DNA of 64,000 nt, taken from sequence record OR896822.1; one strand, 5' to 3'. Of the stretch, positions 14,436 to 63,780 are shown piece by piece. The notes under the pieces are model-generated. The model saw only the letters and a list, made by a program, of their open reading frames with translations. It searched no databases and was not told the origin of the DNA. This stretch comes from Salmonella phage vB_SenS-3. The position numbers and the translations under genes are program-made. How positions within the stretch are numbered: position 1 is the first letter of the stretch; each line of letters opens with the position of its first letter.

Positions 14436-14464
14436 TTGATAAAATTTTCCAATCCTATTATAAT
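14436..14464 (+). promoter_or_regulatory. sigma70-like promoter upstream of distal tail protein gene
   Basis: TTGATA at 14436-14441, 17-nt spacer, TATAAT at 14459-14464, then AAGAGGAG RBS and ATG at 14491. Confidence 0.5.
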
Positions 14465-14490
14465 ATTGTTATTAAGAGGAGAAATTAACT

Positions 14491-25635: not shown

Positions 25636-27474
25636 TTATTCTAAGTAGGAAAATCCTTCTGCATCTTTTTTGACAGTAATCTTATGAGCTAATGGATGCG
25701 TATGCCCATGAGAAACAATGATAGAATTCAGACTATCTTCTTCATTTAATAATTCAACGAGAGTATCAAGTCCTTTCGTATCAATAAAGCTAATAACTTC
25801 GTCAAGGAACAGAAGATTAATATTAACTTTACTAATAGATGTTAACAGCATTCGAATAGCTAACAGAGTTGCTAGGTTAATTCTACTCTGCTGACCAGTA
25901 GAGCAGTTCTCCATACTGGTGCGGTTTCCATCATTGAAGATTACTACTTGTAATTTAGTTTCATCAAGTTCAAATCCAAGTGCGAACTTACCACCAGTCA
26001 TAATAGAAAGATATTTATTAATCAATTCCTCAAATACTTTCACACTATGCTCTAGTTTATATCCTACCAGATTTTTCAATGCAGCGATCAGAATATCAAG
26101 ATCAGCAACAGCTTCTGATACTCCATCCAGTTTGGACGTTATCTCAGACATTTCTGCCTCAGCTTTTTCAATCTGTTCTAGTTTCGCTTTATATTTTGCA
26201 TTGGCTAATTCGACATTTGCATTATGCTCTTTGGCAATTGCAACTTTAGAACGGCCATCAGCGATTTCCTGTTCTAATTGTCGGATTTGCACCTGTAGGA
26301 TCTGCACATTGAGTTCTTCAAAAGAAGCATCACTCATTGAATTTTTGAACTCGTCTCTAGCTGCTACTGCCTTATCCAAAGCATCCTTAGCTCTAGTATA
26401 TGCAGTGTACTCGACTTGTTCTTTCTTCAACTGCTCTAGTGTAGCTTCAAGGGATTGTTTCTCTTTAAACAGAGGATCATACTCTGTTCTAGCCATATCC
26501 ATTGCTTTTTGAGCAGCAGTTGTATCAAGGTGAGTACCACAAGTAGGACATTCAGTATTTGAAGCCTCTTGCTTGAACTTCTGATAACGTTTCTTGACTT
26601 CTCCCGCACGTGAGGTAACAATCGTTAGGTCACGCGTAACACTTGAGATCTCTTCAGATTGGTCAGTGGGCGCAGGGAAATTTTTGAAAGGCTCGAAAGA
26701 TTGTTCGGCAACTTGTACAGCTTTGTCCAAATTACGAAGTTTAGTAATATTAGCCTCTTGTGACTTGGCTAATGCCGCCTTAATTTTCGATTCAGTAAGT
26801 TCTTGTGCTAACGGTTCTTCATCAAACTCTGGAATTTCGACTGGCTCCTGTAAACTTCCGAGATTACCTTTTCCATTGAGGATCTTCGTAATTACGGCCA
26901 TCTGGCCTTGCAAATTACTTAACGTACTTGCCACTTCTTTACGATCAGCCTTAATAGTTTCTGACATCTCTTTATACTGTTCCTGATTGAACAGGTTAAC
27001 AAGAAAAGCTTTACGTGTTGCATCAGTTGCTTTGAGGAAGTCTAGATTGGAACCGACAGATTGATAGATCAGCTTAGTGAATGTTTGGAAGTCACCACCC
27101 ATAATCTCTTCAATCATCTTGTACGTTTGAGTTGCTGTGTGTCCACTGATATCTTCTCCATTCTTAATCAGTGTAACCTTAGCAGTTGATTTAACTACTT
27201 TATGTAACTCATACTCATCTTCATCTTTCGAGAAGTAAGCGTGCATATCGTACTCTTTCTTCGGAGAACCCCAAGAGAATAAGGCGTCCTTCTTGATACC
27301 ACGTGAGTTCTTGTTATAAAACAATTCCTCAATAACAGTAGCAATAGTGGACTTCCCTAGACCGTTTCCTCCGATTAACTGAGTAACTGGATTTTTATCG
27401 AAATGAATTACGATATCCTTACCATAAGACATAACGTTGCTGAATTTTAGTGTCTTAATTATAATCTTTGACAT
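25636..27474 (-). CDS. SbcC/Rad50-like recombination ATPase (D13-like)
   Basis: Walker A GGNGLGKST; zinc hook CPTCGT; long coiled-coil middle; D-loop/Walker B LLFLDEV near C-terminus. Start moved to ATG at 27474 (MSKIIIKTLKF), which limits overlap with the upstream gene to 20 nt; ORF track gives 27549. Confidence 0.8.
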   Translation of the reverse strand: MSKIIIKTLKFSNVMSYGKDIVIHFDKNPVTQLIGGNGLGKSTIATVIEELFYNKNSRGIKKDALFSWGSPKKEYDMHAYFSKDEDEYELHKVVKSTAKVTLIKNGEDISGHTATQTYKMIEEIMGGDFQTFTKLIYQSVGSNLDFLKATDATRKAFLVNLFNQEQYKEMSETIKADRKEVASTLSNLQGQMAVITKILNGKGNLGSLQEPVEIPEFDEEPLAQELTESKIKAALAKSQEANITKLRNLDKAVQVAEQSFEPFKNFPAPTDQSEEISSVTRDLTIVTSRAGEVKKRYQKFKQEASNTECPTCGTHLDTTAAQKAMDMARTEYDPLFKEKQSLEATLEQLKKEQVEYTAYTRAKDALDKAVAARDEFKNSMSDASFEELNVQILQVQIRQLEQEIADGRSKVAIAKEHNANVELANAKYKAKLEQIEKAEAEMSEITSKLDGVSEAVADLDILIAALKNLVGYKLEHSVKVFEELINKYLSIMTGGKFALGFELDETKLQVVIFNDGNRTSMENCSTGQQSRINLATLLAIRMLLTSISKVNINLLFLDEVISFIDTKGLDTLVELLNEEDSLNSIIVSHGHTHPLAHKITVKKDAEGFSYLE

Positions 27475-28432
27475 ATTTAGCAGCTCTAGCCAAGATTCTA
27501 TCGATGTCGTCTTGAGACAGCTTTTCAACTTCACGGAAGTAAAGTTCAAGTTCGCCTAACATATCAAGATCAACAAGATTTAACTTAGCATCTTTAGTAA
27601 CTCGATGGTTAATCTTTTTATCTAAGAGATCGGAATCTTTAATAGACTTTAACTGAACAACGTCACCAGTGACTTCATAAATTACACGGTCATAGTCACT
27701 AGGCTCCATTTCCTCACCAACTCCGATTGTTTTACGAATCAGTTGAGGTAAGTCACCAAGTTCAATCCATTCTACTTTTAATGTGTCGGTATCAATGATA
27801 AAACAACCATTTGTACCTTTTGTGCGTTCTCTATGGAACGATGTAGTTAATGGAGATCCTGGATATAGAAGTTTAGTAGAGCCAACAGTTTGACTATTAG
27901 TATAAGAATGTAAATCGCCAGCAATTACAGTGTCATAACAGTTATACCTCGTTAGATCAATCTCTGGTTTTACATGTGGAGGGATTTCACCACGAACATG
28001 CGTGAAACATAATTTTGATTCAGATGGTTTCCACTTTGGTTTGTGGATTTCATCATAGGGGATAATATCAAATTCAGGAGAACGATATGGTTTAGTAATG
28101 ACTTCCCAATTTCCGTTTGTTACTTTATTAATAACTCCTGCATAATGATATAGGCATGAAATAGTTTTAGTTAACATTTCATGGTTCCCTGTGAAGATCT
28201 TGCCTGGATGGTCAAGTCTTGACATGAACTGTTCAAGAAGTTCTATTTCTTCCGACGATGGGTCGGCAACATCAAGAATATCACCACCAGCAATATGCAG
28301 ATCACAGTTATGATTATGGAATATGTCATTTAACCGTTCTCCTAGCATCAGGAAGCGACGCTTCTGCCACTCCTTTGGAACTTTATCTTGTCCTAGTTTG
28401 ATATGATGATCAGCACTAAATAGTATTCTCAT
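27455..28432 (-). CDS. SbcD/Mre11-like nuclease (D12-like)
   Basis: N-terminal MRILFSADHH phosphoesterase motif, GDILD, GNHE motifs of calcineurin-like phosphoesterases; paired with Rad50-like gene. Confidence 0.8.
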   Translation of the reverse strand: MRILFSADHHIKLGQDKVPKEWQKRRFLMLGERLNDIFHNHNCDLHIAGGDILDVADPSSEEIELLEQFMSRLDHPGKIFTGNHEMLTKTISCLYHYAGVINKVTNGNWEVITKPYRSPEFDIIPYDEIHKPKWKPSESKLCFTHVRGEIPPHVKPEIDLTRYNCYDTVIAGDLHSYTNSQTVGSTKLLYPGSPLTTSFHRERTKGTNGCFIIDTDTLKVEWIELGDLPQLIRKTIGVGEEMEPSDYDRVIYEVTGDVVQLKSIKDSDLLDKKINHRVTKDAKLNLVDLDMLGELELYFREVEKLSQDDIDRILARAAKYVKDYN

Positions 28433-29600: not shown

Positions 29601-29627
29601 TTTTGTCTCTCATCAATTTATGTATAT

Positions 29628-29657
29628 ATTATACATTAAATCGGGAGGATTTGACAA
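29628..29657 (-). promoter_or_regulatory. T5 early-type sigma70 promoter (proximal of tandem pair)
   Basis: Minus strand TTGTCA-18-TATAAT followed by ATATACATAAATTGATGAGAG element. Confidence 0.6.
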
Positions 29658-29728
29658 GTACAATTTTTATTTTTCTGCCTCGGACTTTCTTATCAATCCG
29701 AAACTTTCTCTCTCAAATTTATGTATAT

Positions 29729-29757
29729 ATTATACAATAATTATGAGTAGTTGCCAA
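29729..29757 (-). promoter_or_regulatory. T5 early-type sigma70 promoter (distal of tandem pair)
   Basis: Minus strand TTGGCA-17-TATAAT followed by ATATACATAAATTTGAGAGAG; shares an exact 21-nt block with the proximal promoter. Confidence 0.6.
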
Positions 29758-38745: not shown

Positions 38746-38772
38746 ATTTCTTCCTTATCAATTTATATAAAT

Positions 38773-38801
38773 ATTATAGCAAGTATTTAAGCATTTAGCA
38801 A
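38773..38801 (-). promoter_or_regulatory. T5 early-type promoter for ligase B part
   Basis: Minus strand TTGCTA-17-TATAAT followed by ATTTATATAAATTGATAAGGAAG and ATG. Confidence 0.6.
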
Positions 38802-40109: not shown

Positions 40110-40138
40110 AATTGATCCTCTCATCAATTTATATAAAT

Positions 40139-40167
40139 ATTATATATGAAAACTGAGTCGAAAGCAA
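40139..40167 (-). promoter_or_regulatory. T5 early-type promoter
   Basis: Minus strand TTGCTT-17-TATAAT followed by ATTTATATAAATTGATGAGAGG. Confidence 0.6.
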
Positions 40168-41297: not shown

Positions 41298-41404
41298 ATT
41301 TTTCGATTTCCTTAATTAAGAATTAAACAGAATAGTTCTTTCAAACTATGAGAATATTATATCAATAATTACAGGATTAAGCAACTGAAATTTTTCAGTA
41401 ACTG

Positions 41405-42347: not shown

Positions 42348-42378
42348 ATTTAAACTCCTCTCTCAAATTTATGAATCT

Positions 42379-42407
42379 ATTATACAGAAAAATTTTCCTG
42401 AAAGCAA
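42379..42407 (-). promoter_or_regulatory. T5 PN25-like strong early promoter
   Basis: Minus strand TTGCTTTCAGGAAAATTTTTCTGTATAATAGATTCATAAATTTGAGAG, matching the PN25 promoter as I recall it. Confidence 0.7.
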
Positions 42408-42874: not shown

Positions 42875-43103
42875 CTTCTTTAATTAATTCTCCTAATTCC
42901 TTATAAACACGTTCTAACTCAAAAGGGATACGTAAGGATATTCGTACCTTACGTTGTTTTAACAGCCATATAGATACGTTCGGAATACCAGCCAATCTGG
43001 GAGGGACCACTCGGCATAGTTTCTCCGCAGTATCGTAAACAGAAGTTTTCCGTTCTTTTACTGAAAACTTCCTTGTTTCCCACTTTTTATTCTTCGCTGT
43101 CAT
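42852..43103 (-). CDS. small hypothetical protein
   Basis: ATG at 43103 (MTAKNKKWETRKF...) overlapping the 3' end of the upstream gene; weak RBS. Confidence 0.2.
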   Translation of the reverse strand: MTAKNKKWETRKFSVKERKTSVYDTAEKLCRVVPPRLAGIPNVSIWLLKQRKVRISLRIPFELERVYKELGELIKEDDNSRRG

Positions 43104-45876
43104 TTCTAGCCCCCAATTCAGCAAGAGCTTCCTCATGCATCTGACGTTCTTCATCTGTCATAAACTTAACTGGAATCGGCATACATTCGATCTTACAGTA
43201 AGTTCTGTACCAGTCCACAATCTTTTCCGTATCCAGATCTTTACCGATACCCATCATGCCAAGATACATACGAGCATATTTTGGGTTAGCGCTCTGACCT
43301 GTCTTAAGGAAGAAATCCTTCTTCTTATTCTTAAGAGCTTCGATAAACGGTTTGATTGTTACGTTTGAACACTTTTTAATATCTTCCCAGAACATGTCGT
43401 GCATCTTATGGAAGAATGCAGCTCTATCGTTTGGTTTATCCTTGATATACTGTTCAACGTGTTCCACTGTTACATCTTTAATAGAATCCAGATGATAATA
43501 GCGAACCAGAAGTAACTTGGCTTCATAGGCATCTGCATGACGTGGTGCACAATATTCAGGAGTTGAGTGCAAAATAGCTTTGATTCGCTCTTCTGTATAC
43601 TCTTTGCCTGCACCTTCGATAGTCCCCCAGCTTTCACTGAAGATATCAATAGTTGCACCTTGATCGAGAAGATAATAACGCAAAGTACTGGTATAGTTTC
43701 TAGATTCCAGCTCACGACGGCGTGCGTACAGTTGCTGAGCTAACTCAATCCAACCCTCGTCAATATTATATTGCTCGGAACCAGCAGAGAATCCACTCGT
43801 AGATTTATCAATAAAATAATAAATGTTCTGAGCACCACGGTCGCGCCTGATTGCTTGAAAACGCATGTTTGGCGCTTGGTTTGAGGTTCTAGTGATTACG
43901 AATACGTTATCAAAATAGTTAAAGTCAACACCACTCGTTACAGATGGACTACATAACAAACAATCAATCTGTTGATCAATTAGCTCATTAGTTGTATAAT
44001 CCAGAATACGTCGGATATCTACATCAGACGTAGAGTTTGAGTGAATTTCTTTAACTAACGCACCAGTATTACGACGTAATGCCATTCCCTTCTCATTCAG
44101 TTCATCCGGGCCACAGTCAGATACTAGGATTGATTTCTCCCCCATCTCTAAAGATGTTTGAAGTGCAACCCAAATACTGGATTCATCAGGGAACTCATAT
44201 GCATGAGCTTTTGCCAGCATTTTACGGTGATGATTATAGAACGCGACCGGTTTATCAAAATCAATCAAAGAACCATAGGCTTCAATCGTTTCTGCACTGA
44301 TATCACCATCAGATAAGATAACCGTTTTTGCAGTAATAAGAATATCGCGAAGAACCTGAATACATTCACGACGGTTTTTAACAACCGGGGCGAATAACAG
44401 ATCATTCATTACTGCGTCACATTCATCAATAAAGATCGTATCAATCTGACCCACAAAGCTCTTGAACTTATGGATAGAGTGAATAGTTGAAGACATACGA
44501 TCAATAGCACCACGTTTGAAGTTCAGCATATCAACTGACTTATCATACTGACCAGCACCGAATTTCTTCGCGTTTGAAGATACAAGTGCCCTAGTATTTG
44601 TGATTGCAATAAAGTTTCCTGGAAGAACACCTGCATCTAGCCACTTAGTTACTGCTGTGGTTTTACCTGTACCAAGACTTGCCTTAACAAATGTTAAATG
44701 TCCTTTTGGGGGTACAATGTTAATCTTCAAGTATGGAACTTCTGGCGGTGAATCTGTGTCCAGACGCTTTAGTGGTACACCTTTTAAGTTGGGTGGAATC
44801 TCACGTTTGGAGTTATTCACAAAGGCTTTTAGAGCCTGCTTACGACCGTTATTAAAGTAATCTTGAATATTACGACTATTATCTTTAGTTGCAATATATT
44901 CAGATAAAGCTGGTTTAATCTCACGTTCTAACCACGTAAAGTCAACACCATCTTCTAACGCTCTGTGATAAAGTTTTGGGATAATACGCAGGTACACCCC
45001 ATCCTCAGCTTCTTCTAGTTCGCTGATGGTTTCTTCCACTTTATCAGATGCAGCTTTCTTGCCTTTAATTTGGTCAAGTAAGGAGTAGAATTCTTCTTTA
45101 AACTCACCTCTAGTTGTTTCAAAGTCAACTAGGTTATTGGGTAGATTCACTTTCGAACCCTTAACATACACAAGACGTGGTTTATTCTCCGCTTTAAACG
45201 GATCGACTATACCATCATCAAACAAGGGATCTGCGAAATAGTGAAGCTGAACAGAAGAATAATAAGCTAAGTCAGCAATATCAAAGCCATACTTTTGCTT
45301 ACTACTGTCATTGATAGATGTAAATAAGAACTTTAACTGTCCCTGCGTTACCTTGACATTAGATTCTAGCATTAAGTGCATTCGGATACCTGGTTTTAAT
45401 CCAGCCGAAGACGATGCATGGGCAATAAACCCTGCATCAAGAGGAAACATATCCTCACTAATACTATTCAACATCTTAATAATATGACGTGCCATGCCAA
45501 CAAGATTAAACTTGTCATAGCCACCAGTATCTACAATACCATCCACGTCCATAGCGATAATATGACTAGGATTGGATACGTTAAAGTTTCCTCTGGTACG
45601 ACGCACATTATCTTTTGGAGCTAGACATTTACCACGAATAGCTACAATATGCGGGTCTTTGGTAAGACGACGCATGATAGATAACATTTCAGCAAGGTTT
45701 TGCGGGTCAAGTTCTTCAAGTACATCAAATTTGAAGGGCATGGAAGCTGGTTTACCTTCTGGATGCTCTTTAGAGAATCGCTTTGCAAAGGTATAATCTT
45801 CCACTTTGATCTCTTTCCAGATGCCAGTGGCTTTATCTCTGGAAAATCCTGCGTGACCTTGTAGGATTGAGAACAC
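43087..45876 (-). CDS. putative primase-polymerase (AEP-like) / P-loop helicase fusion protein
   Basis: Start moved to GTG at 45876 with AGGAG RBS 7 nt upstream (ORF track ATG at 45999 has no RBS); N-terminal D-x-D motif HIIAMDVDG resembles AEP primase motif I; central Walker A SLGTGKTT and DExD-like IFIDECD. Confidence 0.6.
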   Translation of the reverse strand: MFSILQGHAGFSRDKATGIWKEIKVEDYTFAKRFSKEHPEGKPASMPFKFDVLEELDPQNLAEMLSIMRRLTKDPHIVAIRGKCLAPKDNVRRTRGNFNVSNPSHIIAMDVDGIVDTGGYDKFNLVGMARHIIKMLNSISEDMFPLDAGFIAHASSSAGLKPGIRMHLMLESNVKVTQGQLKFLFTSINDSSKQKYGFDIADLAYYSSVQLHYFADPLFDDGIVDPFKAENKPRLVYVKGSKVNLPNNLVDFETTRGEFKEEFYSLLDQIKGKKAASDKVEETISELEEAEDGVYLRIIPKLYHRALEDGVDFTWLEREIKPALSEYIATKDNSRNIQDYFNNGRKQALKAFVNNSKREIPPNLKGVPLKRLDTDSPPEVPYLKINIVPPKGHLTFVKASLGTGKTTAVTKWLDAGVLPGNFIAITNTRALVSSNAKKFGAGQYDKSVDMLNFKRGAIDRMSSTIHSIHKFKSFVGQIDTIFIDECDAVMNDLLFAPVVKNRRECIQVLRDILITAKTVILSDGDISAETIEAYGSLIDFDKPVAFYNHHRKMLAKAHAYEFPDESSIWVALQTSLEMGEKSILVSDCGPDELNEKGMALRRNTGALVKEIHSNSTSDVDIRRILDYTTNELIDQQIDCLLCSPSVTSGVDFNYFDNVFVITRTSNQAPNMRFQAIRRDRGAQNIYYFIDKSTSGFSAGSEQYNIDEGWIELAQQLYARRRELESRNYTSTLRYYLLDQGATIDIFSESWGTIEGAGKEYTEERIKAILHSTPEYCAPRHADAYEAKLLLVRYYHLDSIKDVTVEHVEQYIKDKPNDRAAFFHKMHDMFWEDIKKCSNVTIKPFIEALKNKKKDFFLKTGQSANPKYARMYLGMMGIGKDLDTEKIVDWYRTYCKIECMPIPVKFMTDEERQMHEEALAELGARNDSEE

Positions 45877-46372
45877 AACAATACTCCTATGTTGGTTATT
45901 CGAATATCTTTCTTTAGGACTATTCAAAAGAATAGAACAACTATTACTACCATTTACACAAACATTAATCATCATCAAGCAGTATGAATAAGTTATCATA
46001 CCTCAGTGCTGCGCTCTCTTAACTCTTATCCAGATCAGAACCTAGGTCATTGGCCGCTAAGCCGATTCTGATTGCCCTCACTATCCTATTGGTAGGTGGC
46101 TACTGGACGTGTCACCATTCGCTGCTCTTTTCGTTCGCACCCCCATATAAAGCTCTGCCTATATAACGAGCTAAATATGCACGGTTTGGATTTACCTTTC
46201 CGAATTCAGGGTACGCAGATCACTTAATTGATAATTAACTAATGCAGTATAAACACTAGTAATAGTTAAAACAACCCTTAATGGGGCAGCCTAACTGTTC
46301 CGTATTGCGGACTGTAAACAAGAAAAATTAGCAAAATCAATTTTTACTAATGTCTCTCAATTCAATATAAAT

Positions 46373-46401
46373 ATTATATCAAGATTTTGAGCATCCTGCA
46401 A
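46373..46401 (-). promoter_or_regulatory. T5 early-type promoter about 480 nt upstream of primase-helicase start
   Basis: Minus strand TTGCAG-17-TATAAT followed by ATTTATATTGAATTGAGAGACA. Confidence 0.55.
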
Positions 46402-46440
46402 GTAAAATTTTTCCGAAGGTGCTATCAGTGTCCTTGAGCA

Positions 46441-49656: not shown

Positions 49657-49684
49657 AGCTTTCTCCTCTCAAATTTATAAATCA

Positions 49685-49713
49685 ATTATACATAAGTTTT
49701 AGCTCGAAAGCAA
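49685..49713 (-). promoter_or_regulatory. T5 early-type promoter
   Basis: Minus strand TTGCTT-17-TATAAT followed by TGATTTATAAATTTGAGAGGAG. Confidence 0.6.
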
Positions 49714-51658: not shown

Positions 51659-51687
51659 ATTATAACTCATTCGAAGGCGGATGTCAA
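51659..51687 (-). promoter_or_regulatory. consensus sigma70 promoter for nrdD
   Basis: Minus strand TTGACA-17-TATAAT (perfect consensus hexamers). Confidence 0.7.
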
Positions 51688-51737
51688 CAATATTTTACCA
51701 TAAAGTTCTGTAACATGATCTGAGTCAAAAAATTTTA

Positions 51738-51766
51738 TTTGCCAACCTCTATTAAAAATAGTATAA
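51738..51766 (+). promoter_or_regulatory. sigma70 promoter (plus strand, divergent from nrdD promoter)
   Basis: TTGCCA-17-TATAAT. Confidence 0.5.
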
Positions 51767-51879
51767 TCACACGCCCGTGTACGCGATATAAAATGATTAT
51801 CTAGTACCATACATCTCCCAATAAAAGCAAGTAAATTTTTTATTTAAAAGCAATATCATGGGTTTATTTAAAATTATAC

Positions 51880-51908
51880 TTGCTTTTTGCTGTAAACCTT
51901 GTTATAAT
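51880..51908 (+). promoter_or_regulatory. T5 early-type promoter upstream of phoH
   Basis: TTGCTT-17-TATAAT followed by ATATTTGTAAGTTGAT. Confidence 0.6.
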
Positions 51909-55482: not shown

Positions 55483-55511
55483 TTGCTAATCTCTACCAGA
55501 TTTGCTATAAT
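55483..55511 (+). promoter_or_regulatory. T5 early-type promoter for nrdB
   Basis: TTGCTA-17-TATAAT with TG extension (TGCTATAAT). Confidence 0.65.
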
Positions 55512-58465: not shown

Positions 58466-58494
58466 TTGCTTACTGAGTGAAATTCAAATATAAT
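58466..58494 (+). promoter_or_regulatory. T5 early-type promoter
   Basis: TTGCTT-17-TATAAT. Confidence 0.6.
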
Positions 58495-58524
58495 ATACTT
58501 CTAATTTGACAGAAGGATTTAATA

Positions 58525-59103
58525 ATGACAGCCATAGTAGCATTTAAATATAAAGATAAAGTATACTTAGCTGGTGATCGTATGGGTTCTAATGGCTATA
58601 CGAAACTGCTGGTTAAAAATCCGAAAGTATTCAAAATCTCTGATGATTTGTACTTCGGATACACTAGTTCCTTCTACATGGGACAATTACTAGAGCATAG
58701 CTTTACTGTACCACCACGTTTAGCAGATATTTCCGATGATAAATATTTATATACGGAAATAGTACCTAAATTACGTGATATGTTTAACCAGAAAGATTTT
58801 GGCGAAAAGAAAAATGAAAAATATGCTGAACCTAATCTGGGACAATTTATTATGCTCTACAAAGGAAGAATCTTTATTTTCCAATCTAATGCTTCTATTC
58901 TAGAAGTTGAATATGCCGGTGTAGGCTGTGGAGGAGAAGATGTACTTTCCAGTATTCGTACAGGTTTAGCTATTGCGGATTGTCGAGCCACAGATTTAGA
59001 TGTAGATGATATATTTGAAATCATTGATCTGGCTTTTACGCATTGTGCAGATTATATGTGTGGTGTATCTTCCCAACATGATGTTTTAGTAATTGGAGAA
59101 TAA
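58525..59103 (+). CDS. HslV/proteasome-beta-like Ntn-hydrolase family protein
   Basis: 192 aa; N-terminus MTAIVAFKYKDKVYLAGD (Thr at position 2, cf. HslV MTTIVSV...AGD); GVGCGGEDV resembles HslV GSGG motif; from memory. Confidence 0.5.
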   Translation: MTAIVAFKYKDKVYLAGDRMGSNGYTKLLVKNPKVFKISDDLYFGYTSSFYMGQLLEHSFTVPPRLADISDDKYLYTEIVPKLRDMFNQKDFGEKKNEKYAEPNLGQFIMLYKGRIFIFQSNASILEVEYAGVGCGGEDVLSSIRTGLAIADCRATDLDVDDIFEIIDLAFTHCADYMCGVSSQHDVLVIGE

Positions 59104-59105
59104 AT

Positions 59106-59375
59106 ATGTCTATTCTTTTATCTGCTTTAGAAGCAAAACAAAATACTATTGCTAGCATTAAAAAGGAAGTAATTGACCTAGAATCACTTATTGCCGTAGA
59201 GATTGACAAAGCTATTAAAGATAAAGAATTTAACTGTCACATCCAGGGATTAACTGAATACTCAGAAAACGCTAGAAATAGCGTCATGCAAAAACTTAGC
59301 AAACTAGGTTATGTTGTAGAAGCTAAGTATGAACAGCGTGAAGGTTTTTGGCTTGAAATTGATTGGAGCAAATAA
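59106..59375 (+). CDS. hypothetical protein
   Basis: 89-aa ORF, stop overlaps RNase H start (TAATG). Confidence 0.4.
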   Translation: MSILLSALEAKQNTIASIKKEVIDLESLIAVEIDKAIKDKEFNCHIQGLTEYSENARNSVMQKLSKLGYVVEAKYEQREGFWLEIDWSK

Positions 59376-59851
59376 TGTCGGTTTTCCACATATATACAGA
59401 TGGTGCATGTAAGGGCAATCCTGGTTTAGGTGCGTGGGGATTCGTTGTCTATAATGATAATGATGATCGTATTGGCTCTAAATCTGGCTTCAGCCATAAA
59501 ACTACTAATAACGAAATGGAACTTACTGCAATTGTTGAAGTTCTTCGTTGGTCTACTAAGAAAGATAATCGTCCAGTAATTATCTACACTGATTCTGCTT
59601 ACTGCAAAAATGGTATGGAAAGCTGGATGTGGTCTTGGCAGAAGAAAGGATGGAAGAAAGGAGATGGTGAAACTCCTCTTAATCTAGAACTCTGGCAAGA
59701 AGCGTTTAAACTAACTCAACAGTATATTAATTTCCATGATACTAACCCAACCTTTGTTAAGGTTAAAGGTCACTCAGGTATTCGTGGTAATGAAGAAGTT
59801 GATGCTCTATGCAATACTGTAATTACTGAGCAAGAACTTGCTGAGATGTAA
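59375..59851 (+). CDS. rnhA: ribonuclease H (RNase HI)
   Basis: N-terminal IYTDGACKGNPG; TDS, and GHSG..GNEEVD motifs of RNase HI; ATG at 59375 with GGAG RBS (ORF track TTG 59363). Confidence 0.8.
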   Translation: MSVFHIYTDGACKGNPGLGAWGFVVYNDNDDRIGSKSGFSHKTTNNEMELTAIVEVLRWSTKKDNRPVIIYTDSAYCKNGMESWMWSWQKKGWKKGDGETPLNLELWQEAFKLTQQYINFHDTNPTFVKVKGHSGIRGNEEVDALCNTVITEQELAEM

Positions 59852-59871: not shown

Positions 59872-59900
59872 TTGCTTAAAGCCCTCGAATTTATTATAAT
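59872..59900 (+). promoter_or_regulatory. T5 early-type promoter
   Basis: TTGCTT-17-TATAAT; a 9-bp inverted repeat (AAAGCCCTC at 59878-59886 / GAGGGCTTT at 59917-59925) spans the promoter and the downstream RBS. Confidence 0.6.
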
Positions 59901-59927
59901 ATTCGTATTGAAAGTGAGGAGGGCTTT

Positions 59928-60206
59928 ATGCGAATTTACAACTCAAATTCATTAGGATTTAAACCTTTGAGAAAACGCGCACAATCTCCGCGTCAGATCA
60001 GAAAGGCAAATATTGGTGAGCCAGAAACTAGGCTTCCACCACCTCCGGAGCAACGTCTAGTTTACTTAGACGAAGAATTAGCCGAAAGGGAACGTAAAGC
60101 TCAAGAAGAAATTGAGCGTAAGAAACTGTGTACTGCTCCTGCATATAATAAGGGTGGTTATCAGTACGTTTCCAGTGAGGAACAAGCTAAGATGATCGGC
60201 AGATAA
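59928..60206 (+). CDS. hypothetical protein
   Basis: 92-aa ORF with GAGGAG RBS. Confidence 0.4.
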   Translation: MRIYNSNSLGFKPLRKRAQSPRQIRKANIGEPETRLPPPPEQRLVYLDEELAERERKAQEEIERKKLCTAPAYNKGGYQYVSSEEQAKMIGR

Positions 60207-60222
60207 TTTTTAAAAAATTCAT

Positions 60223-60251
60223 TTGCTAAACGCTTCAAAATTTCGTATAAT
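60223..60251 (+). promoter_or_regulatory. T5 early-type promoter
   Basis: TTGCTA-17-TATAAT followed by ATATCTCATAAATTGATCAAC. Confidence 0.65.
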
Positions 60252-60289
60252 ATATCTCATAAATTGATCAACAAAAAGGAAAACAAATA

Positions 60290-60805
60290 ATGGCTAAGCA
60301 GAAAAACGCAAAAACTCAGGCAGCTCCGGCAGTTAAAACTTTCGCTCAGACCGAAGCCAATCGTAAGGCTCGTCTGGAACGTCATCTGCGTAAGCATCCT
60401 ACTGATGCTCAGGCTCAGACTGCCCTGAAGTCTGCGGCTCCGGTTCGCCAGAAGCCGAAGGCCAAGAACTCTACTCGCGCAACTGCTAAGCAGGTTGTGT
60501 TCATCAAGGGTGAAGGTCATAAGTCTGTACCGGTAACTCTGAGCTTTAACGGTGGTGCTGAGATGTTCGCCCGCAACGGTATGGCTCTGAAAGACTACGA
60601 AAAAGCAGTCAATCAGAAGCGTAAGCCAATGGCTGACGTAATGCGTGAATCGCGTGGACAGTTTGGCTCCGTTAAACCGAATATCTTCGGTGTAGAGTAC
60701 AGCCGTGACAACGTTCGCGCTCTGTGCTACGGTATCGGTATTAAGTTTACTGGTGCTTCTGATCGTAAATCCGCTAAACCTACTCGTAAGCGTAAAGCGA
60801 AGTAA
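60290..60805 (+). CDS. basic Lys/Arg/Ala-rich protein, possibly abundant nucleic-acid-binding protein
   Basis: 171 aa; strongly optimised codon usage; own promoter and downstream hairpin; function inferred only from composition. Confidence 0.5.
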   Translation: MAKQKNAKTQAAPAVKTFAQTEANRKARLERHLRKHPTDAQAQTALKSAAPVRQKPKAKNSTRATAKQVVFIKGEGHKSVPVTLSFNGGAEMFARNGMALKDYEKAVNQKRKPMADVMRESRGQFGSVKPNIFGVEYSRDNVRALCYGIGIKFTGASDRKSAKPTRKRKAK

Positions 60806-60813
60806 TGATTGAT

Positions 60814-60827
60814 GGGGCGAAAGCCCC
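60814..60827 (+). terminator. GNRA-tetraloop hairpin (GGGGC-GAAA-GCCCC), weak terminator or RNA-stability element
   Basis: Perfect 5-bp GC stem with GAAA loop; downstream U-tract is poor. Confidence 0.4.
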
Positions 60828-60866
60828 ATATACTAACTCTTTCTCTGACTAATCAAGGATATTTTT

Positions 60867-61082
60867 ATGTTCTCTAAGAAACCACGTTCCGTTACTGAAA
60901 TCGTTGCTTCCTTTACCACTATTACTGATGAACTTCAAGCTCGTATTGAAGCTGACCAGAAAACTGCTGCTGATATTCAGAAACAGCAGGAAGAACTCGC
61001 TCTGAAACTGGCTGAAACCAATAAGAGTGAAAAATCTGCTCAAACTATTAAGGAAAATATCCTTAAACTGCTGGGCAAGTAA
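60867..61082 (+). CDS. hypothetical protein
   Basis: 71-aa ORF, coiled-coil-like. Confidence 0.4.
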   Translation: MFSKKPRSVTEIVASFTTITDELQARIEADQKTAADIQKQQEELALKLAETNKSEKSAQTIKENILKLLGK

Positions 61083-61091
61083 TTTAAATCA

Positions 61092-61112
61092 GGGGGCGAA
61101 AGCCCCTCTTAT
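61092..61112 (+). terminator. hairpin GGGGGC-GAAA-GCCCCT plus U-rich tail
   Basis: Same GGGGCGAAAGCCCC core as at 60814; followed by CTTATTT. Confidence 0.45.
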
Positions 61113-61123
61113 TTGGAGAAACT

Positions 61124-61336
61124 ATGCGTAACTTCGTTGCAAAGAATGATTTTAACCGTGCTAGCACTCACAAGTCTGCTAGAGACTACACTCGTCTTTC
61201 TAAACATGAGCTTCTAGAAGAAATCATGGAAGAAAACTGGGATGTTAGTGAAAATGGAACAGACCTGTTTGAAGAAGAGGAACTTCCTCTGAAAGACCCC
61301 AAACAGTGGGAGTCTATTAAAGAGACAGCTCTTTAA
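61124..61336 (+). CDS. hypothetical protein
   Basis: 70-aa ORF. Confidence 0.4.
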   Translation: MRNFVAKNDFNRASTHKSARDYTRLSKHELLEEIMEENWDVSENGTDLFEEEELPLKDPKQWESIKETAL

Positions 61337-61366
61337 TAGTTTTCTACAACAATAAAGGACATAATT

Positions 61367-62068
61367 ATGAAATTCAAGCCCTTTGGTATGCTGGACATTG
61401 AATCTCTAGGTACTCCAGGAAATTGCGGTACTACTCATATTGCAATGCCTTCTTTCGCTTTTGTAGCGATGCACGGAATTGATAAAGATCCTGATCTGGT
61501 ATTCGTTACTCTAGACGTTCAAGATCAGCTTAATGCGGGTGCTAAGGTAACTGCCTCTACTATTGCATTCTGGATGGATCAAGCTAAAAACAGTCCATCT
61601 GCGCTCCATATTATGGAGGCTCTAAATGGTCGTAATCCTAAACTGATTGCCTTCCGTGATGGTAAGCATCACTGCACTAATGACGTAGGCTCTAATTATG
61701 CTGCCTTCTCTATGGCTCAGAACATTATGGAATTGTCTCTAGGAGATAATGCTCTGTATTATGGCAATGGCCCAGAGTTTGATATGACAATCTACTCTGC
61801 AAATACGTTCCATGCCGGAACCCATGAAGAAATAGTTCCGTGGAAATTCTGGAACTTAGGTAACGTTCGATCTTTCCGTAATCAGTGGATGCAAGCTGGT
61901 TATAGCTATAAAGATCTAGAAGCCGAAGGTGCTAGCTGGGCAAAAGCTAAAATGGAAAAGATGGACACCATTCGTTATGGAATCTATCCTGTGAAGCATG
62001 ATCCAGCATTCGATGCTTTAGTTGAAAGTTATTGTGTAGCCGTCATGATCGAAAAAATCAAAATTTGA
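61367..62068 (+). CDS. putative DEDDh-type 3'-5' exonuclease-like protein
   Basis: N-terminal MLDIESLGT (Exo I DxE motif) and C-terminal KHDPAFDALVESY (Exo III H-x4-D motif); middle motif less clear. Confidence 0.45.
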   Translation: MKFKPFGMLDIESLGTPGNCGTTHIAMPSFAFVAMHGIDKDPDLVFVTLDVQDQLNAGAKVTASTIAFWMDQAKNSPSALHIMEALNGRNPKLIAFRDGKHHCTNDVGSNYAAFSMAQNIMELSLGDNALYYGNGPEFDMTIYSANTFHAGTHEEIVPWKFWNLGNVRSFRNQWMQAGYSYKDLEAEGASWAKAKMEKMDTIRYGIYPVKHDPAFDALVESYCVAVMIEKIKI

Positions 62069-62069
62069 T

Positions 62070-62098
62070 TTGCTTTCAGCTCCAAAATTCTGTATAAT
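62070..62098 (+). promoter_or_regulatory. T5 PN25-like early promoter
   Basis: TTGCTTTCAGCTCCAAAATTCTGTATAAT followed by ATATTCATAAATTTGAGAGAAC. Confidence 0.65.
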
Positions 62099-62138
62099 AT
62101 ATTCATAAATTTGAGAGAACAACAAAAGGAAAATAATT

Positions 62139-62321
62139 ATGCCAGTATCTAAAAACGTCCGTAAAAATGGTAAAGTAGCAAAACGTAACCTGGGTCTGCG
62201 TCGTATGGCTGAGCGTCAGTCCGGCATCCAGAAAATCTTTAATGTGCTGAATCGCGCCAACCCGAATATTGATAACAGTTCTGATACTGTTCTGCGCACT
62301 CTGCTGGCAATCGGTCTGTAA
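62139..62321 (+). CDS. hypothetical protein
   Basis: 60-aa basic ORF with optimised codons, first gene after promoter. Confidence 0.35.
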   Translation: MPVSKNVRKNGKVAKRNLGLRRMAERQSGIQKIFNVLNRANPNIDNSSDTVLRTLLAIGL

Positions 62322-62374
62322 TAGACCATTTTTAAAACAAATTCAAATCTCAAACTTCATATAAGGAAGAAATA

Positions 62375-63013
62375 ATGACTACTCGTATCTCTAAAACTCG
62401 TGCTCTGGCAACTATCAAGTCTCTAGAAGCTAAAATCCGTAAAGCTACTGAACAACAGCTTTTGATTGCTGTTGGTGAAGGTAAGGATAAGAACCAAGTT
62501 GTAGTTGGCGCTGCAATCGAAGTAGATGCTCTGTCTACTCGTATTAAGACTGATTTCCAGTCTCTGTTGGATATGATGTCCCAGCGTGATCATCTGAAAG
62601 CAGCGCTGATCAAGAGCAATGCTGAAACTGTTGTAGAGATCGGTTCCCGATCTATGACTGTTGCGGAAGCAATCGAAGCTAAGCGTTCTATGGAACTCAA
62701 AGCTCAGTTGCTGGCTAACATGCGTAAGCAGTTCCATGCTGCTACTGTTAAGTTTAACACTCAGAAGGCTCAGTTTGATAACAAGTATGAGCGTTTGCAG
62801 GATACCATGGCTACCCGCGACAAGAAGACTTCTGAGGATGAAGTTAAGATGCAGCTTAACCTGCTGGAACTCAAGAACACTCCGTTCCTGATCGATCCGC
62901 TGGAGCTGGAAAAGCTGATCAAGCAACACGACGAAGAATACCAGGATTTTGCAACCAACGTTGACTTTGTTATGTCTGAGTCCAACGCCTCTACTTTTAT
63001 CGAAGTAGAGTAA
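62375..63013 (+). CDS. hypothetical protein
   Basis: 212-aa ORF, optimised codon usage, AAGGAAGA RBS. Confidence 0.45.
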   Translation: MTTRISKTRALATIKSLEAKIRKATEQQLLIAVGEGKDKNQVVVGAAIEVDALSTRIKTDFQSLLDMMSQRDHLKAALIKSNAETVVEIGSRSMTVAEAIEAKRSMELKAQLLANMRKQFHAATVKFNTQKAQFDNKYERLQDTMATRDKKTSEDEVKMQLNLLELKNTPFLIDPLELEKLIKQHDEEYQDFATNVDFVMSESNASTFIEVE

Positions 63014-63403
63014 TGATTTAAAAGACTAGTAAATCGGTAGACGAAAGCCCAAGCATCTTACCTCGCAGCAGCGGTTGAAATACGAGGTTAAATAAGACCG
63101 CTGACCATACTATAAAGTATAATCTATTGGAGATTATCTTAATTTATTTTTCGGCAGATGTTGCATCTGTCAAAATAAAACAAGACGTCGTTGGTAGTAC
63201 CAACACAACTTCAAAGATCAACGCTCAAGTATGAAAGCTGAAAAGTTAAAAGCACTCAAACTTCTAACCTTCTAAAGCTAAAAGATGCAAAGTATTCGTT
63301 GATGATTCAAACCCTAGATCAAAGGTACATGGCTCATAAGATATGGCCTGTGGCGCCTCTAGGCTATTTATCGGTTTACTAGTTTCACAATTTAAAAATG
63401 TAT

Positions 63404-63432
63404 TTGCTAATTAGTTTAGTTTTCTGTATAAT
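63404..63432 (+). promoter_or_regulatory. T5 early-type promoter
   Basis: TTGCTA-17-TATAAT followed by ATATTTTTAAATTGATGAGACGAGG. Confidence 0.65.
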
Positions 63433-63462
63433 ATATTTTTAAATTGATGAGACGAGGCTATT

Positions 63463-63780
63463 ATGATTTTTCATATTCTTATTGATGATGTGCGTAACCT
63501 TCATGGAATGGACATTATAATTCGAACCCCCGAAGCCGCTGTTGAGTTTCTGAATAAAACCGATACCACAGGTCATTTCGTTTATATGGATAACGATCTG
63601 GCTGTAGATGATATGGAAGGTTATCAAATTCTTCGTTTACTCCTAGAATTTGGTCAGAGACCCAAGAAAGTGGTACTAGTAACCTCGAACCCAGTAGCTA
63701 AAGAGACCATGCGTAATGATCTCTTAGACGAAGGGTATCAAGAAAGCCCTAATCGTATTGAGTACGATTGGCCGGAGTAA
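63463..63780 (+). CDS. hypothetical protein
   Basis: 105-aa ORF with GAGG RBS; spacing of acidic and Ser/Thr residues is faintly receiver-domain-like, not supported. Confidence 0.4.
   Translation: MIFHILIDDVRNLHGMDIIIRTPEAAVEFLNKTDTTGHFVYMDNDLAVDDMEGYQILRLLLEFGQRPKKVVLVTSNPVAKETMRNDLLDEGYQESPNRIEYDWPE

What the first reader, a model, noticed from the sequence alone, without database searches (positions are those of the whole stretch)
59872..63432. Array of near-consensus T5 early promoters sharing a conserved downstream ATAAATTGA/ATAAATTTGAGAG box
At least six plus-strand promoters here (59872, 60223, 62070, 63404, plus 55483 and 58466 upstream) and several minus-strand ones (29628, 29729, 38773, 40139, 42379, 46373, 49685) have TTGCTx -35, exact 17-nt spacing and TATAAT -10. 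Many are followed within about 10 nt by ATAAATT(T)GA(T)GAGAG, an element I recall from the T5 PN25 promoter (the copy at 42379-42407 is nearly identical to PN25 as I remember it). The conserved downstream box suggests a shared initial-transcribed or leader function beyond RNAP recruitment.
Basis: partly seen in the sequence, partly recalled or inferred. Interest (0 to 1): 0.4.

Follow-up and report, generated by a model that had tools for sequence, protein, structure and literature searches.

The report
T5 early promoters with conserved start region
These are the well-known strong "early" promoters of a T5-like phage, including direct counterparts of PN25 and PH207; the conserved box after them is the start of the transcript, already shown for PN25 to help RNA polymerase leave the promoter, so the finding is correct but not new.

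Summary
TTGCT-N18-TATAAT occurs 13 times in the window against 0.1 expected. All eight exact copies of the box lie 6-7 nt after such a -10 hexamer.

The window is a T5-like phage (Epseptimavirus), 99.9% identical to Salmonella phages vB_SenS-3 and vaffelhjerte. The T5 RefSeq record already annotates promoters at the orthologous sites: PH207 = 60223, PN25 = 42379-42407 (identical from -46 to +20), PN26, PK28a/b and P31A/B.

The box is the initial transcribed sequence (+1 = the A of ATAAAT). It has two parts:
- A base-specific heptamer ATAAATT (+1..+7). It is fixed relative to the -10 hexamer, not to the start codon. Across Klebsiella, Serratia and Vibrio relatives it is conserved about as well as the -35 hexamer. 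In T5 it is retained in front of tRNA and stable-RNA genes.
- A purine-rich tract (+8..+17). It doubles as the Shine-Dalgarno sequence in about half the cases.

In T5 the heptamer marks the early class (24/39 early promoters against 0/7 pre-early and late).

This element is the "downstream sequence region" of Kammerer et al. 1986 and Hsu's N25 ITS, which speeds promoter escape. Verdict: already known, low interest. What reads the heptamer so specifically, and whether it contributes to early-class regulation, is still open.

The parts
59872..59900 (+). Early promoter (TTGCTT-17-TATAAT), ortholog of the T5 promoter at 46337-46411. It drives the T5.090 homolog (59928-60206). The downstream region is degenerate (ATTGAAAGTGAGGAGG, 3 mismatches to the heptamer).
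   Evidence: 65/70 identical to T5 over -50..+20
60223..60251 (+). Early promoter, ortholog of T5 P-H 207. It drives the T5.089 homolog (60290-60805).
   Evidence: 65/70
60259..60267 (+). Box ATAAATTGA (+1..+9) of the PH207 ortholog, 7 nt after the -10 hexamer. The real SD (AAGGA) lies about 18 nt further downstream.
62070..62098 (+). Early promoter, ortholog of the T5 promoter at 44393-44467. It drives the T5.086/T5.085 homologs. Its UP-like tract and -35 hexamer overlap the 3' end of the preceding ORF.
   Evidence: 67/70
62105..62117 (+). Box ATAAATTTGAGAG (+1..+13). The start codon is 34 nt from +1 and has its own SD.
63404..63432 (+). Early promoter, ortholog of the T5 promoter at 43067-43141. 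It drives the T5.084 homolog (63463-63780).
   Evidence: 66/70
63439..63452 (+). Box variant TTAAATTGATGAGA (+1..+14; 1 mismatch in the heptamer).
58466..58494 (+). Early promoter upstream of the RNase H operon (T5 46937 ortholog). Its heptamer is CTAATTT (2 mismatches).
55483..55511 (+). Early promoter (T5 50061 ortholog) with TGn (extended -10). It has no heptamer but keeps the purine-rich tract.
51880..51908 (+). Early promoter (T5 53638 ortholog). Heptamer GTAAGTT; leader of about 70 nt.
49666..49713 (-). Early promoter (T5 55708 ortholog) plus box ATAAATTTGAGAG (49666-49678).
46373..46401 (-). Early promoter (TTGCAG -35; T5 58999 ortholog). Box variant ATTGAATTGAGAG; leader of about 480 nt.
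42360..42407 (-). PN25 ortholog (promoter 42379-42407) plus box ATAAATTTGAGAG (42360-42372). It drives D2.
41356..41384 (-). PN26 ortholog. Heptamer ATAGTTT; leader of about 52 nt before D3.
40124..40167 (-). Early promoter (T5 65284 ortholog) plus box ATAAATTGA (40124-40132).
38758..38801 (-). PK28a ortholog plus box ATAAATTGA (38758-38766). It is 70/70 identical to T5.
29710..29757 (-). P31A ortholog (TTGGCA -35) plus box ATAAATTTGAGAG (29710-29722). There is no start codon for 122 nt.
29613..29657 (-). P31B ortholog (TTGTCA, 18-nt spacer) plus box ATAAATTGA (29613-29621).
14436..14464 (+). Contrast case: the late promoter PG25 ortholog (TTGATA-17-TATAAT), which lacks the heptamer.

Best explanation
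The sites are sigma-70 promoters of the early temporal class of a T5-like phage. The 'box' is their initial transcribed sequence, called the DSR or ITS in the PN25 literature.

Shown here:
(a) The promoters are orthologs of annotated T5 promoters, several of them experimentally characterised.
(b) The box begins at +1 (pppAUAAAUU...).
(c) It has two parts. The first is a base-specific heptamer ATAAATT at +1..+7. The second is a purine-rich tract at +8..+17 with no fixed sequence.
(d) The box sits at a fixed distance from the -10 hexamer, not from the start codon.
(e) The heptamer is under purifying selection across genera, and in T5 it marks the early class.

Taken from published PN25 experiments: these promoters bind RNA polymerase extremely tightly (UP-like A-tract, near-consensus -35, perfect -10, 17-bp spacer), so the rate-limiting step is promoter escape. 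The native ITS gives the fastest escape. Purine-rich non-template sequence disfavours the pre-translocated and backtracked states.

Inferred:
- The same mechanism applies to all box-bearing promoters in this phage.
- The A/T-rich heptamer fixes an A+1/U+2 start in a YRY context and makes early bubble expansion cheap.
- In the ~10 short-leader mRNAs (5' UTR 19-27 nt), the GAGAGG part also serves as the Shine-Dalgarno sequence and AUAAAUU as an A/U-rich leader.
For: Enrichment.

Orthology to T5 PN25, PH207, PN26, PK28a and P31A/B, and to unnamed annotated promoters.

Position of +1: PMC7472727 and 10.1101/042432.

Anchoring: the heptamer lies 6 nt (once 7) after the -10 hexamer, while the distance to the start codon ranges from 19 to 484 nt.

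Information content peaks at -45..-40, -35..-32, -12..-5, +2..+7 and +9..+14.

Cross-genus orthologous pairs (37 pairs; Klebsiella, Serratia, Vibrio), identity by segment:
- +1..+7: 0.73
- -35 hexamer: 0.78
- spacer: 0.43
- +22..+35: 0.32

Base specificity: 65 promoters from four other genomes, chosen without reference to the box, give A .75, T .85, A .83, A .78, A .72, T .78, T .85 at +1..+7. Positions +8..+16 are only purine-rich.

The purine tract persists in long-leader promoters: 0.78 against a null of 0.50.

In T5 the heptamer stands as a bare 7-8-nt leader directly before tRNA-Ser3 and rnaX.

Class specificity in T5: 24/39 early (counting llp) against 0/7 pre-early and late, p = 0.003.

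Function: the native N25 ITS gives an escape half-life of 3.0 min against about 45 min for the anti-ITS, and about 10-fold more full-length RNA; GreB does not help the native ITS (PMC12464699). A canonical -10, a 6-7-nt spacer and YR+1Y predispose promoters to backtracked promoter-proximal pauses (PMC7876045), which explains why such promoters need a favourable ITS.
Against: The escape function has been measured only for PN25 and engineered variants of it. It has not been measured for the other promoters or for this phage.

Generic studies of the ITS do not predict this sequence as an optimum. On lambda PR, deoB and lacUV5, T residues within the first 7 nt and a TG step near +5/+6 slow escape (PMC5961368). 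The box is T-rich at +6..+8 and has TG at +7/+8 or +8/+9.

Known RNA polymerase-DNA contacts do not explain base-specific conservation at +3..+7.

Four of the 19 early promoters in the window lack the heptamer, so it is not obligatory.

No transcription start sites have been mapped in this phage.
Confidence: 0.8

Rival explanations
1. The heptamer, together with the ATATT discriminator, is a class-specific regulatory target. A phage-encoded factor would recognise it in the open or initial transcribing complex and switch early promoters off at the early-to-late transition. Candidates are an RNA-polymerase-binding protein such as gpT5.026, or the D5 DNA-binding protein. This could coexist with the escape function.
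For: In T5 the heptamer is confined to the early class. Its only occurrence in the late region is the promoter of llp, which is expressed early.

The heptamer is base-specific, not merely A/T-rich, and it is conserved across genera as well as the -35 hexamer. A generic escape requirement would not obviously demand that.

PMC7472727 states that the mechanism of class switching in T5 is unknown. It also reports that gpT5.026 weakens RNA polymerase binding to the -5/+2 segment of N25, and that early transcripts increase in the gene 026 mutant.
Against: There is no dyad symmetry beyond that of the consensus itself and no co-variation between upstream and downstream sequences, so a classical dimeric operator is not supported.

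gpT5.026 binds RNA polymerase, not DNA, and its effects are small (two-fold or less in transcription assays). PMC7472727 attributes the class difference to the discriminator, not to the ITS.

PN25 and PH207 work as very strong promoters in uninfected E. coli, so the box needs no phage factor to function.
Confidence: 0.2
2. The box is selected mainly at the RNA level. A common 5' end, AUAAAUU(U)GAGAGG, would act as a translation-initiation leader (A/U-rich enhancer plus SD) or as a 5'-end stability or processing signal for early mRNAs.
For: In 10 of the 19 window promoters the 5' UTR is only 19-27 nt long and GAGAGG/GGAG lies at SD distance from the start codon. Purine content at +8..+17 is highest in this group (0.89).
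Against: The position is fixed relative to the -10 hexamer while the distance to the start codon varies from 19 to 484 nt.

Long-leader promoters keep both the heptamer and the purine tract but use a separate SD.

In T5 the heptamer precedes tRNA-Ser3 and rnaX, which are not translated.

The effects on PN25 are seen in purified transcription systems (PMC12464699).
Confidence: 0.15
3. TAAATT at +2..+7 is a -10-like element that re-engages sigma-70 region 2 after escape. This would cause a sigma-dependent promoter-proximal pause near +16..+20 on every early transcript.
For: TAAATT matches TATAAT at 4 of 6 positions, including the critical A at position 2 and T at position 6, and these positions are 78-85% conserved. 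Sigma-dependent pauses at 16-20 nt depend on an extra -10-like hexamer close to the TSS (PMC7876045).
Against: In that study the second base of the -10-like hexamer lies at -1..+2, whereas here it lies at +3. The N25 papers read here (PMC12464699; 10.1101/042432) describe abortive products up to 10 nt and escape at +11, with no sigma-dependent pause mentioned. T5 has no known Q-like factor that would use such a pause.
Confidence: 0.06
4. The similarity has no function. It would be A/T-rich drift, or recent copying of one promoter cassette around the genome.
For: Paralogous promoters cross-hit at about 85% identity over about 60 nt. The genome is 60% A+T.
Against: Orthologous promoters in genera whose D2 proteins are only 36-69% identical keep +1..+7 while their spacers have randomised. 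The choice between A and T is strongly non-random at every heptamer position. The box never occurs away from a promoter.
Confidence: 0.02

Closest known systems
Bacteriophage T5 early promoters (PN25, PN26, PH207, PK28a, P31A/B and others; Gentz & Bujard 1985; annotated in NC_005859)
   Same: The architecture is the same: an A-rich block near -43, TTGCTt, a 17-bp spacer, TATAAT, an ATATT-type discriminator, and +1 ATAAATT(T)GAGAG. Each window promoter sits at the orthologous genome position. Identity to the T5 counterpart over -50..+20 is 63-70 of 70 for eight of the nine pairs compared; P31B is 50/70.
   Different: The host range and genus differ (Epseptimavirus, Salmonella). There are a few substitutions, mainly in spacers and beyond -46. 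The 58466 promoter has a different downstream gene set from T5.
PN25 'downstream sequence region' (Kammerer et al. 1986), also called the N25 initial transcribed sequence (Hsu laboratory)
   Same: The box is this element. +1..+20 of the window's PN25 ortholog is identical to N25. N25 is the promoter on which ITS effects on abortive cycling and escape were defined (PMC12464699, PMC5961368).
   Different: Published work treats the ITS of a single promoter and explains it through purine content and translocation bias. Those papers do not dwell on the family-wide, base-specific heptamer or its restriction to the early class. I could not read the 1985 and 1986 primary papers.
T7 A1 early promoter ITS (AUCGAGAGGGACACGG; sequence recalled from memory)
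   Same: It is another strong phage early sigma-70 promoter with a purine-rich GAGAGG tract after an A start. When placed on N25, the A1 ITS supports escape almost as well as the native ITS (3.4 against 3.0 min, PMC12464699).
   Different: It has no ATAAATT heptamer, and the phage family is unrelated.
Sigma-70-dependent promoter-proximal pause promoters of E. coli (G1p/G1d classes, Sun et al. 2021)
   Same: They share a canonical -10, a 6-nt discriminator and a YR+1Y start site. All three are present here (C/T, A+1, T+2).
   Different: Those promoters pause and backtrack and depend on Gre factors. GreB does not stimulate escape on the native N25 ITS (PMC12464699), which suggests that the T5 ITS counteracts this tendency.

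Membership tests
T5 early-class sigma-70 promoter | -35 TTGCTt (or a close variant), a 17 (+/-1) bp spacer and -10 TATAAT | tested here: met
   13 exact TTGCT-N18-TATAAT matches against 0.1 expected. 17 of the 19 early promoters have a 17-bp spacer and 2 have 18 bp.
T5 early-class sigma-70 promoter | A-rich (UP-like) block around -45..-40 | tested here: met
   The information content peaks at -45..-40 (AAAATT; 0.7-1.2 bit, against a null 99.9th percentile of 0.60). Cross-genus identity at -45..-43 is 0.84-0.92.
T5 early-class sigma-70 promoter | A/T-rich discriminator of the ATATT type (Klimuk et al. 2020) | tested here: met
   A at -6 and T at -5 are conserved (1.03 and 0.79 bit). The typical sequences are ATATTC, ATTTAT and ATATAC.
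T5 early-class sigma-70 promoter | Conserved initial transcribed region, +1 ATAAATT(T)GA(G/T)GAG | tested here: met
   9 of 19 promoters match with <=1 mismatch and 6 more with 2 mismatches; 4 lack the heptamer. The same proportion holds in T5, 23 of 38.
T5 early-class sigma-70 promoter | Orthology to promoters mapped in T5 | tested here: met
   The sites correspond in position and sequence to the NC_005859 'regulatory/promoter' features, including P-N 25, P-N 26, P-H 207, P-K 28a/b and P31A/B.
T5 early-class sigma-70 promoter | Early temporal activity and a transcription start at the predicted +1 in this phage | not testable with these tools
   There are no expression data for this phage. For T5, +1 of N25 comes from PMC7472727 and 10.1101/042432.
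Shine-Dalgarno / translation leader element | Fixed distance (about 5-10 nt) from the start codon | tested here: not met
   This holds only for the GAGAGG part in the ~10 short-leader cases. The heptamer lies 19-484 nt from start codons and is fixed relative to the -10 hexamer. In T5 it is also present before tRNA and stable-RNA genes.
Operator of a dimeric DNA-binding regulator | Dyad symmetry that co-varies within sites | tested here: not met
   Local palindrome scores equal those of between-promoter controls. Complementarity between upstream and downstream sequences is 6.89, against 6.86 for the control.
Sigma-70-dependent pause element (-10-like hexamer in the ITS) | A -10-like hexamer with A at position 2 and T at position 6, its second base at about -1..+2, and a pause at +16..+20 | tested here: inconclusive
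   TAAATT (4/6, with A2 and T6) is present, but its second base lies at +3. Pausing cannot be tested here.

The most novel reading that the evidence does not exclude
The base-specific heptamer ATAAATT at +1..+7, together with the ATATT discriminator, is the cis-signature by which Demerecviridae distinguish early promoters from pre-early and late ones, all of which use the same sigma-70 holoenzyme. In this reading a phage-modified RNA polymerase or a phage factor reads the heptamer to shut early transcription off. That would give a concrete handle on the unsolved question of how T5 switches temporal class.
Probability: 0.18. Interest if true: 0.5.

Novelty: already known. Interest (0 to 1): 0.17.

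Why it matters
The practical value is small. The promoters, their conserved start region and its role in promoter escape have been studied since the 1980s, and PN25 is the 'T5 promoter' of common expression vectors.

The analysis adds a sharper description:
- The box is a base-specific +1..+7 heptamer plus a purine tract.
- The heptamer is conserved across genera, as far as Vibrio phages, about as well as the -35 hexamer.
- In T5 the heptamer marks the early class.

Published generic rules for promoter escape do not predict this sequence, and how T5 switches temporal class is still unknown. The heptamer is therefore a reasonable, cheap target for mutagenesis. This is an incremental lead, not a discovery.

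Tried and rejected
1. Palindromic operator. The 12-bp palindrome ATTTATATAAAT occurs only in the ATTTAT-discriminator subset. Across all promoters the dyad scores equal those of between-promoter controls.

2. Promoter-spanning inverted repeat (UP tract against discriminator plus box). It is striking at 63388-63404 / 63430-63446 (17 nt, 94%). It is not general: 6.89 within promoters, 6.86 between promoters, 6.74 after shuffling.

3. Box as Shine-Dalgarno sequence only. Rejected by the anchoring test, by the long-leader promoters and by the T5 tRNA and rnaX promoters.

4. NAD-capping promoter. From memory, the consensus is HRRASWW at -3..+4. The T5 sequence TTC A TAA fits poorly. I did not pursue this.

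5. UTP-sensitive reiterative transcription of the pyrBI type (AATTTG). Only the TTT variant could support it, and the TT variant is equally common. I did not pursue this.

6. Rfam. There was no match in the window at gathering thresholds and none at E<=1 in 62950-63470.

7. Literature gaps. Gentz & Bujard 1985 (PMC214212) and Kammerer et al. 1986 (PMC1167252) are not held in the library. Their content is cited only through later papers or marked as recollection. I found no genome-wide TSS map of T5.

Full report
**What the window is.** The 3.7-kb interval is 99.9% identical to Salmonella phages vB_SenS-3 and vaffelhjerte (Demerecviridae, Epseptimavirus). It matches 444 T5-like records. Relative to phage T5 (NC_005859) the window is inverted and covers roughly T5 42.5-106 kb. 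This span includes part of the late (tail) region, the D-gene replication region and the nrd/thy/rnh region.

**Check of the observation.**
- TTGCT-N18-TATAAT occurs 13 times against 0.10 expected, and no shuffle gave more than 1.
Four of the seven minus-strand sites are also exact.
- 29628 (TTGTCA, 18-nt spacer), 29729 (TTGGCA) and 46373 (TTGCAG) are promoters with variant -35 hexamers.
- The hit at 27437 lies within genes on the other strand, lacks the upstream A-tract and the box, and is probably chance.
- The box is real. All four ATAAATTGA and all four ATAAATTTGAGAG copies in the 64 kb lie 6-7 nt after a promoter -10 hexamer, and none lies elsewhere.
- In the window, the heptamer follows 9 of 24 TATAAT hexamers that have a TTG -35, against 1 of 60 that do not (p = 3e-5). 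In T5 the figures are 25/46 against 0/99.

**Identity of the sites.** The T5 RefSeq record annotates 75-bp promoter features at each orthologous position:
- 43067 (= window 63404)
- 44393 (= 62070)
- 45985 'P-H 207' (= 60223)
- 46337 (= 59872)
- 46937 (= 58466)
- 63043 'P-N 25' (= 42379-42407, minus strand)
- P-N 26, P-K 28a/b, P31A/B and others

Ungapped identity over -50..+20 is 63-70 of 70 for eight of the nine pairs compared; P31B is 50/70. The PN25 ortholog is identical from -46 to +20, and PK28a is 70/70. The sequence also equals the T5N25 template printed in 10.1101/042432.

**Anatomy.** An alignment of the 19 early promoters of the window, anchored on the -10 hexamer, shows conserved blocks at:
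- -45..-40 (AAAATT, UP-like)
- -35..-32 (TTGC)
- a C at -25
- -12..-7
- -6/-5 (AT)
- +2..+7 (TAAATT)
- +9..+14 (GAGAGA)

Each block exceeds the 99.9th percentile of random columns. +1 is the A of ATAAAT. This follows from the -12..+2 N25 oligonucleotide TATAATAGATTCAT in PMC7472727 and from the ApU primer used for N25 in 10.1101/042432. The box is therefore the first 13-18 nt of the transcript.

**Two parts with different behaviour.**
- The heptamer always lies 6 nt (once 7) from the -10 hexamer, while the first start codon lies 19 to 484 nt from +1.
- In about ten promoters the 5' UTR is only 19-27 nt and GAGAGG is the Shine-Dalgarno sequence.
- In PH207, 62070, P31A, PN26, Ppol, 46373 and 51880 the start codon is far away or has its own SD. 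The heptamer and/or a purine-rich +8..+17 tract is still kept (mean purine 0.78 against a null of 0.50).
- In T5 itself, ATAAATT stands as a bare 7-8-nt leader directly in front of tRNA-Ser3 (P15b) and the stable RNA rnaX (P16-17).
- In 65 promoters from T5 and from Klebsiella, Serratia and Vibrio relatives, chosen without reference to the box, +1..+7 is base-specific (A .75, T .85, A .83, A .78, A .72, T .78, T .85). Positions +8..+16 are purine-rich without a fixed sequence. These promoters are related to one another, so the nominal p-values overstate independence.

**Evolution.** I found relatives through the D2 protein (906 records; identity falls to 36% in Vibrio phages). I then compared ten orthologous promoter sets from Klebsiella vB_Kpn24-P2, Serratia Slocum and Vibrio PG07. 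Over 37 cross-genus pairs, identity by segment was:

| segment | identity |
|---|---|
| -10 hexamer | 0.99 |
| -35 hexamer | 0.78 |
| +1..+7 | 0.73 |
| UP-like block | 0.61 |
| discriminator | 0.53 |
| +8..+14 | 0.47 |
| spacer | 0.43 |
| +22..+35 | 0.32 |

The promoters were selected on the -35 and -10 hexamers only, so the value for the heptamer is not an ascertainment artefact. This rules out drift or recent copying as the explanation.

**Class specificity (T5 annotation).** The heptamer (<=1 mismatch) is present at 23 of 38 promoters in the early region. It is absent from all three pre-early promoters tested (PH22 and two unnamed) and from the four true late promoters tested (PG25, PJ5 and two unnamed). 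The only late-region promoter that has it belongs to lpp/llp. A reference title in PMC7472727 describes the llp product as 'expressed early during infection'. Counting llp as early gives 24/39 against 0/7 (p = 0.003). In the window, the PG25 and PJ5 orthologs (14436, 7239) lack the heptamer.

**Mechanism.** The published PN25 work supplies it.
- N25 forms an extremely stable open complex and is rate-limited at promoter escape.
- Replacing +3..+20 with the 'anti' sequence lowers full-length RNA about 10-fold and lengthens the escape half-life from 3 to about 45 min. Forty-three ITS variants span a 25-fold range.
- Purine-rich non-template sequence disfavours pre-translocated and backtracked states.
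- GreB does not help the native ITS (PMC12464699; PMC5961368, both citing Kammerer 1986).
- Sun et al. (PMC7876045) show that a canonical -10, a 6-7-nt spacer and a YR+1Y start site predispose promoters to backtracked promoter-proximal pauses. The T5 early promoters have all three features, which gives a rationale for an ITS that resists backtracking.

I therefore read the box as the escape-optimised initial transcribed sequence of very tightly binding early promoters, reused as leader and SD where the gene follows immediately. The extension from PN25 to the other promoters and to this phage is inference.

**What this does not explain.** Generic high-throughput ITS data associate T residues in the first 7 nt, and a TG step near +5/+6, with slow escape. 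Known RNA polymerase contacts do not account for base-specific conservation of +3..+7. PMC7472727 states that the mechanism of T5 class switching is unknown. It also shows that gpT5.026 weakens polymerase contacts with -5/+2 of N25. A class-specific regulatory role for the heptamer therefore remains possible (about 0.2) and could coexist with the escape role.

I tested and rejected a dyad-symmetric operator and a promoter-spanning inverted repeat. A sigma-dependent pause through TAAATT at +2..+7 is conceivable, but its register is off by one from the described class, and the N25 papers I read do not report such a pause.

**Verdict.** The element is already known: the T5 early promoters and the PN25 DSR/ITS. 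Interest is low. The residual interest is the family-wide, early-class-specific, base-specific heptamer as a target for mutagenesis.

Noticed in passing
window 63014-63403: A noncoding gap of about 390 nt lies between the T5.085 and T5.084 homologs. It folds far better than shuffled sequence (z = -5.0 on the + strand, -3.9 on the - strand) and is closed by a long-range stem (63025-63039 / 63369-63383). Its first ~125 nt are 100% identical to T5. In 100-nt bins, three of the four bins across the gap are 0.93-0.98 identical to T5 (63100-63199 is 0.76), against about 0.72-0.90 for most bins in the flanking genes. It is present and unannotated in 441 T5-like records (403 of them at 90-95% identity). 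It has no Rfam match and was not found in the Klebsiella, Serratia or Vibrio loci. It is a candidate ncRNA or cis-acting DNA element.
   Followed up: partly
window 60814-61106: Relative to T5 there is an insertion of about 265 nt (60828-61092) carrying a 71-aa ORF (60867-61082). It is bracketed by two copies of the hairpin GGGGCGAAAGCCCC (60814-60827 and 61093-61106). This looks like gene gain by recombination at a repeated terminator-like hairpin.
   Followed up: partly
window 51659-51908: A divergent promoter cluster. It contains a perfect-consensus TTGACA-17-TATAAT on the minus strand (51659-51687, the nrdD promoter, ortholog of T5 53884), which lacks the heptamer. Two plus-strand promoters face it at 51739 and 51880. 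In T5, promoters with a TTGACA-type -35 generally lack the heptamer.
   Followed up: partly
window 14436-14490 (+): Ortholog of the late promoter PG25 with the leader ATTAAGAGGAGAAATTAACTATG. From memory, this is nearly the same as the synthetic 'RBSII' ribosome-binding site of pQE/pDS expression vectors. It lacks the early-class heptamer.
   Followed up: no
window 45890-46401 (-): The promoter at 46373-46401 (T5 58999 ortholog) is followed by an untranslated leader of about 480 nt before the gene for the replication-origin-binding protein. The long leader is also present in T5 (promoter at 58999, CDS at 59545).
   Followed up: no
promoter spacers, position -26..-24 (e.g. window 62080-62082, 60233-60235): A conserved 'GCT' (C at -25, 0.96 bit) sits in the otherwise variable 17-bp spacer of the window's early promoters. 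It is not conserved in the cross-genus comparison (0.35-0.43).
   Followed up: partly
window 63388-63404 and 63430-63446: A 17-nt, 94% complementary inverted repeat pairs the UP-like tract of the 63404 promoter with its discriminator plus box. It is peculiar to this promoter, and no general co-variation was found.
   Followed up: yes
window 58500-59335: The two ORFs (192 aa and 89 aa) between the 58466 promoter and RNase H have no nucleotide match in T5. This is a gene replacement downstream of a conserved promoter.
   Followed up: no
window 27437-27465 (+): An exact TTGCT-N18-TATAAT match lies inside the overlap of two minus-strand genes (25636-27549 and 27455-28432). It has no upstream A-tract and no box, and T5 annotates no promoter there. 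It is probably a chance or cryptic site.
   Followed up: yes
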